From the NCBI RefSeq assembly GCF_009914755.1, contig NC_060933.1: a stretch of 64,000 bases of DNA; one strand, given 5' to 3'. The first letter of the stretch is position 1, and each line of letters begins with the position of its first letter. The notes under the pieces are model-generated. The model was not told the origin of the DNA. It searched no databases and saw only the letters and a program-made list of their open reading frames with translations. Shown here one piece after another: positions 10,771 to 21,200 of this stretch. This DNA is from the human T2T-CHM13v2.0 reference genome, Homo sapiens. The translations under genes and the position numbers were made by a program.

Positions 10771-13700
10771 CCATTCCATTCCATTCCATTCCATTCCATT
10801 CCAGTCCTTTCCATTCCATTCCACTCGGGTTGATTCCATTCCTTTCCATTCCTTTATATTTCATTCCATTCCACTCCATTCAATGCCATTCCACGCGGGT
10901 TTATTCCATTCCTTTCCATTCCATTCGTGTTGAATCCATTCCATTCCATTCCATTCCATTCGATTCCATTACACTGCCCTCGGGTTGATTCCATTCCATT
11001 CCATTCCATTACATTTCATTCTATTCCATTCCATTCCATTCCATTCCATTCCATTCAATTCCATTCCATGCCATTCCACTCGTGTTGATTCCATTCCTTT
11101 CCATTCCATTCGAGTTGAACCCATTCCATTCCATTCCATTCCATTCCATTCCATTCCATTCCATTGCACACGGGTTCATTCCATTCCATTCCATTCCATT
11201 CCGTTCCATTCCATTCCGTTCCATTCCATTCCATTCCATTCTGTTCAGCTTAATTCCATTCTATTCCTTTCCCTTCCATTCCATTCCATTCCATCCCATT
11301 GCAATCGAGTTGATTCCATTGCATTCCATTCCATTACATTCCATTGCATTCCATTCCATTCCATTCCCCTGCACTCAGGTTGATTCCATTCGATTCCATT
11401 CCATTCCATTCCATTCCATTCCGTTCCATTCCATTCCATTCCATTCTGTTCAGGATAATTCCATTCCATTCCATTCCCTTCCATTCCATTCCATTCCATT
11501 CCATTCCATTCCATCCAATTGCAATCGAGTTGATTCCATTGCATTCCATTCCATTCCATTCCATTGCATTCCATTCCATTAGATTCCATTCCATTGCATT
11601 CCATTCCATTCCATTCCCCTGCACTCAGATTGATTCCATTCGATCCCATTCCATTCCATTCCGTTCCATTCCATTCCATTCCATTCTATTCGCGTTAATT
11701 CCATTCCATTCCATTACATTCCATTGCAATCGAGTTGATTCCATTCCATTCCGTTCCATTCCATTCCATTCCATTCCATTTCGTTCCATTCCATTCTATT
11801 CCGTACCATTCCATTCCATTCCATTCCATTCCATTCCATTCCATTCCATGCCATTCCACTCGGGTTGATTCTATTGCTTTCCATTCCATTTGGGTTGAAT
11901 CCAATACATTCCATTCCATTCCATTCCATTCCATTCCATTGCACTAGGTTTGATTCCATTCCACTGCATTCCATTCCATTCCATTCCGTTCCATTCCATT
12001 CCATTACATTCGGATTGATTGTATTCAATTCCTTACACTCCATTACATTCCATTCCATTCGGGTTGTTTCCATTCCATTCCATTCCATTCCATTCCATTC
12101 CATTCCATTGCACTCAGGTTGATTCCATTCCACTCCATTCCATTCCATTCCATTCCATTCCATTCCATTCCATTTCGTTCCATTCCATTCCATTCCGTAC
12201 CATTCCATTCCATTCCATTCCATTCCATGCCATTCCACTCGGGTTTATTCCATTCCTTTCCATTCCATTCGGGTTGAATCCATTCCATTCCATTCCATTC
12301 CATTCCATTCCATTCCATTGCACTCGGGTTGATTCCATTCCATTCCCTGCCATTCCATTTCATTCCATTCCATTCCATTCCATTGCATTCCATTCCATTC
12401 CGTTCCATTCCATTCCATTACATTCGGATTGATTGTATTCAATTCCCTTACACTCCATTACATTCCATTCCATTCGTGTTGTTTCCGTTCCATTACATTC
12501 CATTCCACTCCATTCCATTGCACTCAGGTTGATTCCATTCCATTCCATTCCATTCCATTCCATTCCATTCCATTCCATTTCGTTCCATTCCATTCTATTC
12601 CCTACCATTCCATTTCATTCCATTCCATTCCATGCCAATCCACTCGGGTTTATTCCATTCCTTTCCATTCCATTCGGGTTGAATCCATTCCATTCCATTC
12701 CATTCCATTCCATTCCATTCCATTCCATTCCCCTGCAATCGGGTGGATTCCATTCTATTCCATTCCATTCCATTCCATTCCATTCCATTCCATTTCGTTC
12801 CATTCCATTCTATTCCGTACCATTCCTTTCCATTCCATTCCATTCCATTCCATGCCATGCCATTCCACTCGGGTTGATTCCATTCCTTTCCATTCCATTC
12901 TAGTTGAAACCATTACATTGCATTCCATTCCATTCGATTCCATTCAATTGCACACGGGTTCATTCCATTCCATTCCATTCCATTCCATTCCATTCCATTT
13001 CGTTCCATTCCATTCTATTCCGTTCCATTCCCTTCCATTCAATTCCATTCCACTCCATTCCATGCCATTCCACTCGGGTTTATTCCATTCCCTTCCATTC
13101 CATTCGGGATGAATCCATTCCATTCCATTCCATTCCATTCCATTCCATTCCATGCCATTCCACTCGGGTTGATTCCATTCTTTTCCATTCCATTCGAGTT
13201 GAACCCATTCCATTCCATTCCATTCCATTCCATTCCATTCCATTCCACTCGGGTTGATTCCATTCCCTTCCATTCCATTCTGGTTGAAACCATTCCATTC
13301 CTTTCCATTCCTTTCGATTCCATTCCATTTCACTCGGGTTAATCCCATTCCATTGCATTCCATTCCATTCCATTGCATTCCATTCCGTTCCATTCCATTC
13401 CATTACATTCGTATTGATTCTATTCAATTCCCTTACTCTCCATTACATTCCATTCCATTCGGGTTGTTTCCATTCCATTCCATTCCATTCCACTCCATTC
13501 CATTGCAATCGGGTTGATTCCATTCCATTCCATTGCATTCCATTCCATTTCATTCCATTCCATTCCATTCCATTCCATTCCGTATGATTCCATTCCATTG
13601 CATTCCATTCCATTCCATTCCACTGCACTCGGTTGGATTCCATTCTATTCCATTCCATTCCATTCCATTCCATTCCATTCCATTCCATTCCATTCCATTC

Positions 13701-15253
13701 TATTCGGGTTAATTTCATTCCATTCCCTTCCATTCCCTTCCATTCCATTCCATTCCATTCCATTGAAATCGAGTTGATTCCATTCCATTCCATTCCATTC
13801 CATTCCATTCCATTCTATTCGTGTTAATTCCATTCCATTCCATTCCATTCCATTCCCTTCCATTCCATTCCATTCCATTCCATTCCATTCCATTCCATTC
13901 CATTCTATTAAGGTTAATTCCATTCCATTCCATTCCGTTACATTCCATTCCATTCCATTCCACTCCATTCCATGCCATTCCACTCGGGTTTATTCCATTC
14001 CTTTCCATTCCATTCGGGTTGAGTCCATTCCATTCCATTCCATTCCATTCCATTCCATGCCATTGCACTCGGGTTGATTCCATTCCTTTCCATTCCATTC
14101 GAATTGAACCCATTCCATTCCCTTCCATTCCATTCCATTCCATTCCATTCCATTGCTCACGGGTTCATTCCATTCCATTCCATTCCATTCCATTCCATTC
14201 CATTTCGTTCCATTCCATTCTACTCCGTACCATTCCATTCCATTCCATTCCCTTCCATGCCATTTCACTCAGGTTTATTCCATTCCTTTCCATTCCATTC
14301 GGGTTGAATCCATTCCATTCCATTCCATTCCATTCCATTGCGCTCGGGTTGATTCCATTCCATTCTATGCCATTCCATTTCATTCCGTTCCATTCCATTC
14401 CATTCCTTTCCATTCCTTTCCTTTCAATTCCATTCCATTACATTCGGATTGATTCTTTTTAATTCCCTTACACTCCATTACATTCCATTCCATTCGGGTA
14501 CTTTCCATTCCATTCCATTCCATTCCACTGCATTCTATTGCACTCGGGTTGATTGATTCCATTAGATTGCATTCCATTCCATTCCATTCCCCTGCACTCG
14601 GGTTGATCCCATTCCATTGCATTCCATTCCATTCCTTTCCATTCCATTCCGTTCCATTCCATTCCATTCCATTCTGTTCAGGTTAATTCCATTCCATTCC
14701 ATTCCATTCCATTCCATTCCATCCCATTGCAATCTAGTTGATTCCATTGCATTCCATTCCATTCCATTCCATTCCATTGCATTCCATTCCATTCCATTCC
14801 CCTGCACTCAGATTGATTCCATTCCATCCCATTCCATTCCATTACGTTCCATTACATTCCATTCCATTCTATTCGCGTTAATTCCATTCCATTCCATTCC
14901 ATTACATTCCTTTGCAATCGAGTTGATTCCATTCCATTCCGTTCCATTCCGTTCCATTCCATTCCATTTCGTTCCATTCCATTCTATTCTGTACCATTCC
15001 ATTCCATTCCATTCCATTCCATGCCATTCCACTCGGGTTGATTCCATTGCTTTCCATTCCATTTGGGTTGAATCCAATCCATTCCATTCCATTCCATTCC
15101 ATTCCATTCCATTCCATTCCATTGCACTAGGTTTGATTCCATTCCACTGCATTCCATTCCATTCCTTTCCGTTCCATTCCATTCCATTACATTCGGATTG
15201 ATTGTATTCAATTCCCTTACACTCCATTACATTCCATTCCATTCGGGTTGTTT

Positions 15254-15281
15254 CCATTGCATTCCATTCCGTGTGCAATGG
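15254..15281. other. Strand-inversion breakpoint inside the satellite, spanned by an 8-bp inverted repeat
   Basis: ccattgca (15254-15261), a 12-nt loop ttccattccgtg, then tgcaatgg (15274-15281). The cc at 15269-15270 fits both the left ATTCC unit and the right motif (gaac)CCGTGTGCAAT. Confidence 0.93.
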
Positions 15282-15379
15282 CATGGAATGGAATGGAATG
15301 GAATGGAATGGAATGGAAAGGAATGGAATGAAATGGAATGGAAGGGAATGGATTGAAATGGAATGGAATGGAATGGAAT

Positions 15380-15389
15380 CAACCCGAGT
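15380..15389 (+). repeat. Example of the SatIII CAACCCGAGT decamer (very many copies and variants window-wide)
   Basis: caacccgagt read directly. The reverse complement actcgggttg occurs throughout 1-15270. Confidence 0.9.
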
Positions 15390-15439
15390 GCAATGTAATG
15401 GAACTGAATGGAATGGAATGGAATGCAATGGAATGAATT

Positions 15440-18240
15440 CAACACGAATGGAATGGAAAGGAATGGAATAAACCCGAGTGGAATGGCATGGAATGGAGTG
15501 GAATGGAATGGAATGGAATACTACGGAAGAGAATGGAATGGAACGAAATGGAATGGAATGGAATGGAATGGAATGGAATGGAATGGAATGAACACGTGAG
15601 CAATTGAACGGAATCGAATGGAATAGAATGGAATGGAATGGATTCAACTCGAATGGAATGGAAAGGAATGGAATCAACCCGAGTGGAATGGCATGGAAAG
15701 GAATGGAATGGAATGGAACGGAATGGAATGGAATCAACTCGATTGCAAAGGAATGTAATGGAATGGAATGGAACGGAATTAACGCAAATAGAATGGAATG
15801 GAAAGGAATGGAACGGAATGGAATGTAAAGGAATGGAATGGAATCAATCTGAGTGCAGGGGAATGCAATGGAATGGAATGCAATGGAATGGAATGGAATG
15901 GAATGCAATGGAATCACCTCGATTGCAATGGGATGGAATGGAATGGAATGGAATGGAAGGGAATGGAATGGAATGGAATTAACCTGAACAGAATGGAATG
16001 GAATGGAATGGAATGGAATGGAATGGAATGCAATGGAATGGAATCAATCAACCCGAGTGCAATAGAATGCAGTGGAATGGAATGGAATGGAATGGAATGG
16101 AATGGAATGGAATGGAATGAAATGGAATGGCAGGGAATGGAATGGAATCAACCCGAGTGCAAAGGAATGGAATGGAATGGAATGGAATGGAATGGAATGG
16201 AATGGATTCAACCCGAATGGAATGGAAAGGAATGGAATAAACCTGAGTGGAATCGCATGGAATGGAATGGAATGGAATGGAATGGAATGGTACGGAATAG
16301 AATGGAATGGAAAGAAATGGAATGGAATGGAATGGAATGGAATGGAATCAACCTGAGTGCAATGGAATGGAGTGGAATGGAATGTAATGGAATGGAAACA
16401 ACCCGAATGGAATGGAATGTAATGGAGTGTAAGGGAATTGAATACAATCAATCCGAATGTAATGGCATGGAATGGAACGGAATGGAATGGAATGGAATGC
16501 AGTGGAATGGAATCAAACCTAGTGCAATGGAATGGAATGGAATGGAATGGAATGAAATGGAATGGAATGGAATGGAATGGAATGGAATGGATTGGATTCA
16601 ACCCAAATGGAATGGAAAGCAATGGAATCAACCCGAGTGGAATGGCATGGAATGGAATGGAATGGAATGGAATGGAATGGAATGGTACAGAATAGAATGG
16701 AATGGAATGAAATGGAATGGAATGGAATGGAATGGAACGGAATGGAATGGAATCAACTCGATTGCAATGGAATGTAATGGAATGGAATGGAATGGAATTA
16801 ACGCGAATAGAATGGAATGGAATGTAATGGAACGGAATGGAATGGAATGGGATGGAATGGAATCAATCAGTGCAGGGGAATGGAATGGAATGGAATGCAA
16901 TGGAATGGAATGGAATGGAATGGAATGCAATGGAATCAACTAGATTGCAATGGGATGGAATGGAATGGAATGGAATGGAAGGGAATGGAATGGAATGGAA
17001 TTAACCTGAACAGAATGGAATGGAATGGAATGGAACGGAATGGAAGGGAATGGAATGGAATGGAATTAAGCTGAAGAGAATGGAATGGAATGGAATGGAA
17101 CGGAATGGAATGGAATGGAATGGAATGGAATGCAATGGAATGGGATCAACCCGAGTGCAGGGGAATGGAATGGAATGGAATACAATGGAAGGGAATCAAT
17201 CAACCCGAGTGCAATAGAATGCAGTGGAATGGAATGGAATGGAACGGAACGTACCCGAATGGAAAGGAATGTAATGGAGTGTAAGGGAATTAAAAAGAAT
17301 CAATCCGAATGTAATGGAATGGAAGGGAACGGAATGGAATGGAATGGAATGGAATGGAATGGAATGAAATGGAATGGCATGGAATGGAATGGAATCAACC
17401 TGAGTTCAATGGAATGGAATGGAATGGAATGGAATGGAATGGATTCAACCCGAATGGAATGGAAAGGAATGGAATAAACCCGAGTGAAATGGCATGGAAG
17501 GGAATGGAATGGAATGGAATGGTAAGGAATAGAATGGAATGGAACGAAATGGAATGGAATGGAATGGAATCGAATGTAATGGAATGAACCCGTGTGCAAT
17601 GGAATGGAATGGAATGGAATGGAATGGAATGGGTTCAACTAGAATGGAATGGAAAGGAATGGAATCAACCCGAGTGGAATGGCATGGAATGGAATGGAAA
17701 GGAATGGAATGGAATGGAATGGAATGGAATGAATTCAACCCGAATGGAATGGAAAGGAATGGAATAAACCCGAGTGGAATGGCATGGAATGGATTGGAAT
17801 GGAATGGAATGGAATACTACGGAAGAGAACGGAATGGAACGAAATGGAATGGAATGGAATGGAATGGAATGGAATGAACACGTGAGCAATGGAATGGAAT
17901 CGAATGGAATGGAATGGAATGGAATGGATTCAACTCGAATGGAATGGAAAGGAATGGAATCAACCCGAGTGGAATGGCATGGAATGGAATGGAATGGAAT
18001 GGAATGGAACGGAATGGAATGGAATCAACTCGATTGCAAAGGAATGTAATGGAATGGAATGGAACGGAATTAACGCAAATAGAATGGAATGGAAGGGAAT
18101 GGAACGGAATGGAATGGAAAGGAATGGAATGGAATCAATCTGAGTGCAGGGGAATGGAATGGAATGGAATGCAATGGAATGGAATGGAATGGAATGCAAT
18201 GGAATCACCTCGATTGCAATGGGATGGAATGGAATGGAAT
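15440..18240 (+). repeat. Direct repeat, ~15440-15950 matching ~17730-18240 (offset ~2.29 kb)
   Basis: Markers seen on + only in these two places: aatactacggaagag (~15517/17813), aacacgtgagcaat (~15591/17877), gattgcaaagg (~15741/18032), taacgcaaatag (~15780/18071), aatcacctcgattgc (~15912/18203). Confidence 0.85.
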
Positions 18241-21200
18241 GGAATGGAATGGAATGGAATGGAATGAACCCGTGTGCAATGGAATGGAATCGAATGGAAT
18301 GGAATGGAATGCAAAGGATACAACTCGAATGGAATTGAAAGGAATGAAATCAACCCGAGTGGAATGGCATGGACTGGAATGGAATGGAATGGCATGGAAT
18401 GGAATGGAATTGAATGGTACGGAATAGAATCGAATGGAACGAAATTGAATGGCATGGAATGGAATGGAATGGAATGGAAACAACCCGAGTGCATGGTAAT
18501 GGAATGGAATGGAAGGAAATGGAATGGAATCATCCGGAATGGAATGGAATGGAATGGAATGGAATGGAATGGAATGGAATGGAATCAACTCGATTGCAAT
18601 GGAATGGAATGGAATGGAATGGAATGGAATGGAATTAACCCGGATAGAATCGAATGGAATGGAATGGAATGGAATGGAATGGAATGGAATGGAAGGGAAT
18701 GGAATGTAATGGAATGGAATGGAATTAACCCGAATAGAATGGAATGGAACGGAAAGGAAGGGAATGGAATGGAATGTAATCAACTCCAGTGCAGGGGAAT
18801 ACAATGGAATGGAATGAAATGGAATGGAGTCATACGGAATGGAAGGGAATGGAATGGAATCAACCAGAGTGCAATGGAATGGAGTGGAATGGAATGGAAT
18901 AGAATGGAAACAACACGAATGGAATAGAATGTAATGGAGTGTAAGGGAATTGCATATAATCAATCCGAATGTAATGGAATGGAACGGAAAGGAATGGAAT
19001 GGAATGGAATGGAATGGAATGGAATGGAATGGAATGAAATGGAATGGCATGGAATGGAATGGAATCAACCCGAGTTCAATGGAATTGAATGGAATGGAAT
19101 GGAATGGAATGGAATGGAATCAACTAGATTGCAATGGAATGGAATGGAATGGGATGGAATGGAATGGAATGGAATGGAATGGAATCAACCCGAGTGTAGG
19201 GGAATGGAGTGGAATGGAAGGCAATGGAATGGAATCATCCGGAATTGAATGGAATGGAATGGAATGGAATGGAATCAACTCGATTGAAATGGAATGGAAT
19301 GGAATGGAGTGGATGGGAATGGAATGGAATGTAATGAACCCGAGTGCAGGGGAATGGAATGGAATGGAATGCAATGGAATGGAGTCATCCTGAATGGAAC
19401 GGAATGGAATGGAATGGAATCAACCCGTGTGCAATATAATGGAATCGAAAGGAATGGAATGGAATGGAATGGATTCAACCCAAATGGAATGAAAAGGAAT
19501 GGAATAAACCCGAGTGGAATGGCATGGAATGGAGTGGAATGGAATGGAATGGAATGGTACAGAATAGAATGGAATGGAACGAAATGGAATGGAATGGAAT
19601 GGAATGGAATGGAATGGAATGGAACGGAATGCAATGGAATGGAATGGAATGGAATGGAATGGAATGAACCCGTGTGCAATGGAATGGAATGGAATGGAAT
19701 GGGTTCAACACTAATGGAATGCAAAGGAATGGAATCAACACGAGTGGAATGGCATGGAATGGAATGGAATGGAATGGAATGGAATGGAATGGAATGGAAT
19801 GGAATGGAATGAAATGGAATGGAATGGAATGGAATCAACCTGAGTGCAGTGTAATGGAATCGAATGGAATGGAATGGAATGGAATGGATTCAACACGAAT
19901 GGAATGGAAAGGAATGGAATAAACCCGCGTGGAATGGCATGGAATGGAGTGGAATGGAATGGAATGGAATGGAATGGAATCAACCCGAGTGCAATGTAAT
20001 GGAATCGAATGGAATGGAATGGAATGGAATGGATTCAACCCGAATGGAATGGAAAGGAATGGACTAAACCCGAGTGGAATGGCATGGAGTGGAGTGGAAT
20101 GGAATGGAATGGAATGGAATGGAATGGTACGGAATAGAATGGAATGGAAAGACATGGAATGGAATGGAATGGAATGGAATGGAATGGAATGGAATGGAAT
20201 GAACCCGTGTGCAATGGAATGGAATCGAATGGAATGGAATGGATTGGAATGGATTCAACTCGAATGGAATGGAAAGGAATGGAATCAACCCGAGTGGAAT
20301 GGCATGGAATGGAATGGAATGGAATGGAATGGAAAGGAATGGAATGGAATGGTACGGAATAGAATGGAAAGGAACGAAATGGAATGGAATGAAATGGAAT
20401 GGAATGGAATGGAATGGAATGGAATGGAATGGAATGGAATGGAATCAACCCGAGTGCAGGGGAATGGAATGGAATTGAAGGCAATGGAATGGAATCATCC
20501 GGAATTGAATGGAATGGAATGGAATCAACTCGATTGCAATGGAATGGAATGGAATGGAATGGAATGGAATGGAATGGAATGGAATGGAATGGAATGGAAT
20601 TAACCCGAATAGAATGGAATGGAATGGAATGGAAGTAAATGGAATGGAAGGTAATGAACCCGAGTGCAGGGGAATGGAATGGAATGGAATGCAATGGAAT
20701 GGAGTCATCCGGAATGGAACGGAAAGGAATGGAATGGAACCAACCCGTGTGCAATGGAATTGAAAGGAATGGAATGGAATGGAATGGAATGGAATGGAAT
20801 GGATTCAACCCGAATGGAATGGAAAGGAAGGGAATCAACCCAAGTGGAATGGCATGGAATGGAATGGATAGGAATGGAATGGAATGGAATGGTACCGAAT
20901 GGGATAGAATGGAATGGTACCGAATAGAATGGAATGGAACGAAATGGAATGGAATGGAATGGAATGGAATGGAATGGAATGAACCCGTGTGCAATGGATT
21001 GGAATGGAATGGAATGGAATGGAATGGAATGGAATGGGTTCGACTCGAATGGAACGGAATGGAATGAAATCAAACCGAGTGGAATGGCATGGAATGGAAT
21101 GGAATGGAATGGAATGGAATGGAATGGAATGGAAACAACACGAGTGCAATGTAATGGAATCGAATGGAATGGAATGCAATGGATTCAACCCGAATGGAAT

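What the first reader, a model, noticed from the sequence alone, without database searches (positions are those of the whole stretch)
14150..17600. Sequence-specific inverted repeat around the breakpoint, with its symmetry centre displaced from the strand switch
Seen: beyond generic pentamer complementarity, rare variants at ~14150-15260 are mirrored in order at ~16395-17600. The symmetry centre is therefore ~15850, about 0.6 kb right of the switch, and 15271-16394 is a spacer. The arms are not identical: the right arm has a 2-bp deletion (aatcaatcagtgc at ~16861 vs ctcagattgatt at ~14807) and an extra ttaagctgaagag module at ~17066. Inference: an inverted duplication made by switching to a template ~1.1 kb away, old enough to have diverged. 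The divergence also argues against a read fold-back artefact.
Basis: partly seen in the sequence, partly recalled or inferred. Interest (0 to 1): 0.7.

Follow-up and report, generated by a model that had tools for sequence, protein, structure and literature searches.

The report
One satellite fold-back junction, copied 85-fold
The point where this human chromosome 9 satellite repeat flips strand is not unique: the same junction occurs 85 times along the array, likely made once by a DNA end folding back on itself and then copied as the array grew, so most of the array's 200-odd strand flips likely descend from a handful of old events.

Summary
In the chr9 HSat3 array the strand switches at 15270/15271, and 14640-15270 mirrors 16379-17045 across a 1.1-kb spacer.

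The event is not local. The base-exact junction occurs 85 times, all on chr9 (52.3-76.4 Mb; 36 forward, 49 reverse). In 25 junctions examined, left arms group with left arms and right with right. A left arm is no closer to its own right arm than to another copy's (8.7 vs 8.5 differences), and three characters separate the sides.

Four more amplified junctions (52, 30, 22, 11 copies) bring the five families to 200 of 207 mapped switches, out of at least 225.

Best reading: one old fold-back (1.2-kb spacer, 2-bp microhomology, no reciprocal junction found), then copying by array duplication and re-orientation by recombination between opposite blocks. Shared descent is well supported; the fold-back step is inferred (about 65%).

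The switches are published. Their descent from a few junctions was not found in the main texts I searched; supplements and one key review were unavailable.

The parts
15260..15281 (.). Strand-switch junction (CATTCC|GTGTGCAAT), break between 15270 and 15271; family 'F1', 85 copies on chr9; 2-bp overlap (CC) with both intact parent sequences
14640..15270 (-). Left (junction-proximal) arm, module A1; G-rich strand runs leftwards; groups with left arms of other junction copies
14152..14555 (-). Outer left arm, unit B; its closest mirror partner is a unit about 2.7-3.2 kb into the spacer side of sister junctions, not found at that place in this copy
15271..16393 (+). Unmirrored spacer, 1123 bp here and about 1190 bp in several sister copies; a ~70-bp deletion at its start is seen only in this copy and its twin among 25 examined
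16379..17045 (+). Right arm, module A1; private 2-bp deletion at 16869; side-specific T at 16708 (C at 14971)
17046..17111 (+). Extra TAAGCTGAAGAG-containing module, present in 11 of 11 right arms and 0 of 25 left arms; likely lost from the left arm before amplification
   Evidence: a junction-less paralog (L036) has a doubled module at this place
17197..17600 (+).
17586..18400 (+). Intact paralog of the spacer start with its native upstream bases (GAACCC|GTGTGCAAT); shows what the broken end looked like before the junction formed
11412..12384 (-). More distant in-window paralog of the spacer end plus A1, used as outgroup (10-11 differences from both arms)

Best explanation
This strand switch is one of 85 copies of the same junction in the human chr9 HSat3 array, likely created once by a fold-back, in which a broken or stalled DNA end re-primed on its own strand about 1.2 kb back, and likely spread by duplications of the array. 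Step 1 (inferred): a tract ordered spacer-A1-B'-spacer'-B broke inside the module GAACCC|GTGTG. The C-rich strand folded back at a 2-bp overlap and copied A1 onwards in reverse, leaving the loop as an unmirrored spacer. Step 2 (differences shown, order inferred): the arms acquired fixed differences, and the left arm lost a short module and one ~1.2-kb unit. Step 3 (copies shown, mechanism inferred): tandem and multi-megabase duplications copied the junction. Step 4 (mixed orientations shown, mechanism inferred): recombination between opposite-strand satellite blocks inverted whole blocks. This carried junctions intact into both orientations and next to different partner junctions without making new ones. 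No function is claimed; the junction is a fossil of array growth.
For: Same junction in many places: 82 exact and 3 one-mismatch sites, all chr9, with 0 for the reversed-pattern control. 31 of 32 distinct places fetched by similarity carry it at the same base.

Arms sort by side, not by locus: own left-right 8.7 differences, cross left-right 8.5, left-left 6.1, right-right 5.7. The maximum-likelihood tree needs 1 change of the side label; shuffles need 9.8 on average and 0 of 500 were as low. Side-specific characters: C in 25 of 25 left arms vs T in 12 of 12 right; GAAAT variant 0 of 25 vs 11 of 12; extra module 0 of 25 vs 11 of 11.

The A1 marker is tied to this junction: 56 of the first 100 listed copies (of 168) lie within 2.5 kb of one, against 1.9 expected if uniform.

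Fold-back geometry: a 1.1-1.2-kb spacer and 2-bp overlap fit the published ranges of 766-70,466 bp and 2-8 bp (PMC3907307, passages). One search for the reciprocal junction found 0 sites. A second family (F2) shows a mirror at 993 bp scoring above all 14 controls in one of two copies tested.

Amplification: the twin at 68.86 Mb differs by 1 substitution and one 5-bp indel in 5,730 bp. Junction order repeats at offsets near 8.75 and 10.6 Mb. 55 copies remain outside those second copies. Forward and reverse copies are interleaved in the tree.
Against: Branch support for the left/right split is weak: 76/84, and 74% of bootstrap trees have one change. The 25 junctions are the nearest relatives of this one and include recent duplicates; 60 of 85 were not in the comparison, and right arms were available for 12.

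A CC overlap is nearly automatic in a CCATT repeat, so it carries little weight. Near-copies within 1.5 kb are not rare in this array: 2 of 14 controls had 12 mismatches in about 350 bp. An ordinary inversion between nearby paralogs can therefore mimic the geometry.

The other F2 copy and G1, G4, G5 and G10 did not beat the controls for a nearby mirror, although some had under 1.5 kb of flank. The reciprocal-junction search used one pattern and had no positive control. Only 43 of the 100 listed A1-marker copies can be assigned as arms of a junction (32 proximal plus 25 distal counts over 48 junctions, 18 with both), so the marker also occurs away from junctions.
Confidence: 0.7

Rival explanations
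1. The junction is one ancestral event, amplified as described, but it was an ordinary two-break inversion whose ends fell about 1.2 kb out of register in two neighbouring tandem copies; the arms are pre-existing paralogs.
For: Fixed left/right differences could predate the event. A further spacer-A1 paralog lies 3 kb out on the left. Close paralogs within 1.5 kb occur in controls. One outgroup shares the left-arm state at the C/T site.
Against: No reciprocal junction in the one search made, and none of G1, G4, G5 or G10 has the expected flanks. The arms are closer to each other (7) than to the neighbouring paralog (10-11). It needs two breaks at nearly homologous positions.
Confidence: 0.22
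2. The site is a recurrent hotspot: the same junction formed many times independently at a favoured sequence.
For: Copies are in both orientations and have varied neighbours. A preprint reports inversion boundaries at palindromic repeats in pericentromeres generally (10.64898/2026.09.03.749043, passages).
Against: Independent events would pair each left arm with its own right arm. Instead the arms sort by side with fixed differences. The motif GAACCCGTGTGCAAT occurs intact 52 times in the window alone, yet the examined junctions always join it to A1 at the same base.
Confidence: 0.05
3. Local, one-off inverted duplication at this locus, or a read fold-back or assembly artefact.
For: Within the window alone the right arm is the best partner.
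Against: There are 85 diverged copies. Strand switches in this array are reported across many independent assemblies.
Confidence: 0.03

Closest known systems
Strand switches ('inversion breakpoints') of the chr9 HSat3B5 array: Altemose et al., bioRxiv 10.1101/2021.07.12.452052 (passages); 10.64898/2026.07.22.740206 (passages and section 6); 10.64898/2026.09.03.749043 (passages)
   Same: This switch is in all likelihood one of them (their coordinate tables were not seen). They report over 200 breakpoints in CHM13 (a sentence that also covers beta-satellite arrays), about 129 per haplotype, and a count that scales with array length (r = 0.90), read as stochastic by-products of expansion. My map gives at least 225.
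   Different: In the passages read they are counted as separate, randomly placed breakpoints. Here 200 of 207 mapped sites fall into five sequence-defined junctions (85, 52, 30, 22, 11), which would explain the scaling with length as copying.
Fold-back inverted duplications with a disomic spacer (Hermetz et al. 2014, PMC3907307; passages)
   Same: Inverted copy separated from its template by an unduplicated spacer of about 1 kb, with 2-bp overlap at the junction.
   Different: Those are non-recurrent, megabase, patient-specific events beside terminal deletions. This one lies inside a satellite, is old, has short eroded arms (about 0.6 kb here, at least 1.7 kb against a sister copy) and has been amplified 85 times.
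Palindromes kept alike by arm-to-arm gene conversion and spacer flipping, as on the Y chromosome (recalled, no call)
   Same: Inverted arms around a spacer.
   Different: No arm-to-arm homogenisation and no flipped spacer was seen: side-specific characters hold in all 12 copies with both arms.

Membership tests
HSat3 (chr9, HSat3B5) array | Diverged (CATTC)n satellite in the large chr9 pericentromeric array | tested here: met
   About 50-65 pentamer hits per 500 bp throughout; window is chr9:58.22-58.28 Mb; all 85 junction copies on chr9 52.3-76.4 Mb; HSat3B5 is the chr9 subfamily (PMC4022460, passages)
HSat3 (chr9, HSat3B5) array | Subfamily assignment by the published subfamily k-mer sets | not tested
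   The k-mer sets were not applied; assignment rests on position
Fold-back inverted duplication (Hermetz type) | Unduplicated spacer of about 0.8-70 kb between the inverted copy and its template | tested here: met
   1123 bp here, about 1190 bp in 7 sister copies, range 104-4753 bp where found
Fold-back inverted duplication (Hermetz type) | Short inverted microhomology at the junction above chance | tested here: inconclusive
   2 bp (CC) shared with both parents, but expected by chance in a CCATT repeat
Fold-back inverted duplication (Hermetz type) | Non-reciprocal: no partner junction from the same two breaks | tested here: inconclusive
   0 matches to one predicted pattern, no positive control; 2 GGAAT-to-CATTC switches unmapped and five singleton or paired types seen only as short matches or one locus
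Fold-back inverted duplication (Hermetz type) | Arms identical at birth, copied from the adjacent template | tested here: inconclusive
   Arms differ at about 1.3-1.6% and are closer to each other than to the in-window outgroup; pre-existing paralogy not excluded
Fold-back inverted duplication (Hermetz type) | Dicentric intermediate and adjacent terminal deletion | not testable with these tools
   Ancient event inside an amplified array
Actively converting palindrome | Arms of one locus more alike than arms of different loci | tested here: not met
   Own left-right 8.7 vs cross 8.5 differences; left-left 6.1; fixed side characters
Read fold-back or assembly artefact | Unique junction with identical arms | tested here: not met
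   85 diverged copies; arms differ by 9 substitutions and 4 internal gaps in the alignment

The most novel reading that the evidence does not exclude
Nearly all strand switches of the largest human satellite array descend from about five ancestral junctions, at least some of them fold-backs. This one alone accounts for about three quarters of the CATTC-to-GGAAT switches. The first such junction would have seeded opposite-strand blocks, after which recombination between blocks could invert and shuffle 9q12 indefinitely without new breakpoints. The junctions and their flanks would then be unique, alignable markers for the expansion history and size polymorphism of 9qh, and this has not been described.
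Probability: 0.5. Interest if true: 0.65.

Novelty: new variant of a known kind. Interest (0 to 1): 0.52.

Why it matters
The 27.6-Mb chr9 HSat3 array is usually left out of alignment-based analysis; one preprint excludes inversions inside it for low alignment confidence. Its 200-odd strand switches are unexplained beyond being called by-products of expansion.

If they are copies of a few junctions, three things follow. The inversion rate needed to explain the array drops from hundreds of events to a handful plus recombination. The published scaling of switch number with array length follows directly. Short junction k-mers become markers for counting, ordering and dating blocks across haplotypes and apes.

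No function or medical effect is shown.

Tried and rejected
Ungapped inverted-repeat search: 255 pairs, dominated by generic pentamer complementarity (70-90%); uninformative because run lengths shift the register.

BLAST mismatch counts were unstable near the 2-bp deletion (22 vs 8). I replaced them with global alignments with cheap gaps.

Rows dropped before the tree: two distant right-side hits at 57.47 Mb (38 and 44 mismatches), one duplicate of a neighbouring junction's arm and one distant window paralog (44 mismatches). In one search two left rows were trimmed short (345 and 365 bp) by my rule. Several near-identical duplicate loci were left out of the junction set.

Two candidate GGAAT-to-CATTC motifs (5 sites each) were checked at one locus each, showed no strand switch and were dropped. 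One chr7 match was dropped. G6-G9 (6 sites) rest on pattern matches only. Families were verified by fetched sequence or probes at few sites: F2 3 of 11, G1 2 of 22, G4 1 of 30, G10 2 of 52 plus one bracketed by probes. Their strict alternation (188 of 206 neighbours, shuffle mean 103, maximum 127 of 10,000) supports the rest.

Spacer flipping between the arms was considered as the cause of mixed orientation; not seen in 12 copies. A general fold-back signature in all families was tested and was not general.

Literature: ten searches gave no paper describing shared junction sequences in this array. The journal version of Altemose 2022 and the review 'A classical revival' were not held, and bioRxiv supplements (breakpoint tables S6-7, Supplementary Fig. 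10 of both 2026 preprints) were not seen. Any of these could hold the point.

Full report
Setting. The window is pure (CATTC)n-derived satellite in the chr9 HSat3 array of T2T-CHM13. It is C-rich on the top strand to 15270 and G-rich from 15271, with no other switch.

Observation. Rare k-mers give the strongest inverted diagonal at a centre near 15800-15850. The inner left arm 14642-15270 matches 17045-16379 with 8 mismatches, against 15 for the paralog at 11412-12086 and 46 or more for the others. The first 350 bp of the left arm fit the right side at offset 1108 better than any of 14 control pieces fit their own next 1.5 kb. The outer half is a weaker match: 14152-14555 differs from 17197-17600 at 17 of 399 bases. 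It differs at only 5-10 from a unit 2.7-3.2 kb into the spacer side of five sister junctions, and at 5 from a unit 0.85 kb out in a sixth. Against the sister at 64.58 Mb the mirror continues to about window 13300-13500. So the ancestral arm was longer, and this copy lost the true partner of its outer part.

The junction is not local. A genome search with 15150-15400 found an identical twin at 68.86 Mb, and a search with the left arm returned copies at 89-97% identity. Of 32 distinct places fetched, 31 switch strand at the same base; one (54.41 Mb) has no switch. A 22-base junction pattern has 82 exact and 3 one-mismatch sites, all on chr9 between 52.3 and 76.4 Mb, 36 forward and 49 reverse, with none for the reversed control. 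The twin differs by 1 substitution and one 5-bp indel in 5,730 bp. Junction order repeats at offsets near 8.75 and 10.6 Mb, which points to two multi-megabase duplications. 55 copies lie outside those second copies.

One origin. For 25 of the 85 junctions I compared the A1 module on the junction side (left) and, for 12, its mirror copy (right). Mean differences over about 540 bp are: left-left 6.1, right-right 5.7, own left-right 8.7, cross left-right 8.5. Neighbour-joining separates left from right. Maximum likelihood needs one change of the side label, with weak support (76/84); 0 of 500 shuffles were as low. Three characters are side-specific: C in 25 of 25 left vs T in 12 of 12 right, a GAAAT variant in 0 of 25 vs 11 of 12, and the extra module in 0 of 25 vs 11 of 11. 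The 2-bp deletion is confined to this copy and its twin. A 37-base A1 marker has 168 sites; 56 of the first 100 listed lie within 2.5 kb of a junction, against 1.9 expected. That concentration is partly circular, because marker and junction were copied together. The sample is biased to near relatives and includes recent duplicates. These data fit one event followed by copying. They do not fit recurrence, arm-to-arm conversion or spacer flipping.

The other switches. I looked for the remaining junctions by generic patterns and by probing intervals that had to hold a switch (read). This gave a second CATTC-to-GGAAT family, F2, with 11 sites. The GGAAT-to-CATTC families are G1 with 22, G4 with 30 on chr9 and G10 with 52. 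Ordered along the chromosome, the 207 sites alternate in type at 188 of 206 neighbours (shuffle mean 103, maximum 127). This implies at least 225 switches, with 16 and 2 of the two types unmapped. Five families hold 200 of 207. This junction is 85 of at least 112 CATTC-to-GGAAT switches. Only a few members of each other family were verified by sequence.

Mechanism. An intact copy of the spacer start at 17586 shows that the break fell inside GAACCC|GTGTG, and the junction shares CC with both parents. A junction-less paralog has the order spacer end, A1, doubled module, B', spacer start, so the right side is likely ancestral and the left arm derived. A spacer near 1.2 kb and 2-bp overlap match fold-back inverted duplications, reported with spacers of 766-70,466 bp and 2-8 bp of microhomology (PMC3907307, passages). 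No reciprocal junction was found with one pattern. Against this, CC is nearly automatic in this repeat and close paralogs within 1.5 kb occur in controls. Of eight other junction loci tested only one F2 copy beat the controls for a nearby mirror; G4 has a suggestive mirror at 127 bp that stayed within the control range. I put fold-back at about 65-70% and an ordinary inversion between out-of-register tandem copies at about 22%. Forward and reverse copies are interleaved in the tree, and neighbours vary in family, distance (1.1 kb to over 800 kb) and orientation. I infer that crossovers inside opposite-strand blocks moved junctions intact.

Age (rough, computed by hand). Left-left divergence of 1.1%, with rates of 1.37e-8 (autosomal) to 1.33e-7 (acrocentric short arms) per base per generation (PMC12724521, passages), gives about 40,000-400,000 generations. 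That is roughly 1-12 million years at a recalled generation time near 29 years. Neither rate was measured on chr9.

Literature. The switches are known. Altemose et al. report over 200 breakpoints (passages). A 2026 preprint finds about 129 per haplotype (passages). Another finds counts scaling with length and calls them randomly placed, stochastic by-products of expansion (section 6), which is compatible with my reading but does not state it. Ten searches turned up no description of shared junction sequences. The journal version, the HSat review and preprint supplements could not be read, so novelty is uncertain.

Verdict. The wider result, that a handful of junctions explain most of the strand pattern of 9q12, is what deserves follow-up. 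Interest 0.52; new variant of a known kind.

Noticed in passing
chr9 52.3-54.6 Mb vs 61.1-63.4 Mb, and 54.6-60.7 Mb vs 65.2-71.35 Mb: Junction order and orientation repeat at offsets near 8.75 and 10.6 Mb, implying a recent duplication of about 8 Mb of the array in two pieces; this window's twin differs by 1 substitution in 5.7 kb.
   Followed up: partly
L101 (chr9:61,043,395) and L102 (chr9:53,813,886-53,813,910): The G10 junction (52 copies) is a near-perfect small hairpin: 9-bp inverted arms around a 4-base loop, joined at the common CAAC(C/T)CGAG module of both strands.
   Followed up: partly
L076 (chr9:52,957,870-52,957,907): The G4 junction (30 copies) has a mirror of a distinctive module only about 127 bp upstream, a possible second fold-back with a very short loop; its score did not exceed the best control.
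   Followed up: partly
window 15254-15281: A private G in this copy's left arm (15259) creates an 8-bp perfect inverted repeat around a 12-base loop at the switch; could be chance, as GCAAT is a common variant.
   Followed up: no
window 18400-64000: Rare 20-mers recur most often at about 4.9 and 9.7 kb, with weaker peaks at 2.6-2.7 kb; the left side lacks a clear period.
   Followed up: no
chr13:5,072,548-5,073,245 and beyond: A short-period array (about 35-55 bp) in which a GGAAT-strand pentamer meets a CATTC run in every unit, that is, tandem tiny hairpin-like switches.
   Followed up: no
chr7:58.70-59.05 Mb: Pairs of HSat strand-switch motifs placed symmetrically (58.726/59.038 and 58.747/59.011 Mb), suggesting a roughly 300-kb palindrome.
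   Followed up: no
L039 (chr9:70,853,891-70,855,061): A G-rich block only about 1.1 kb long between an F1 and a G1 junction, the shortest block on the map.
   Followed up: no
chr9 49-52.3 Mb: No F1 or F2 junction before 52.3 Mb, though two G10 sites lie at 51.07 and 52.13 Mb; the proximal part of the array may be an older layer (array start near 49 Mb is recalled).
   Followed up: no
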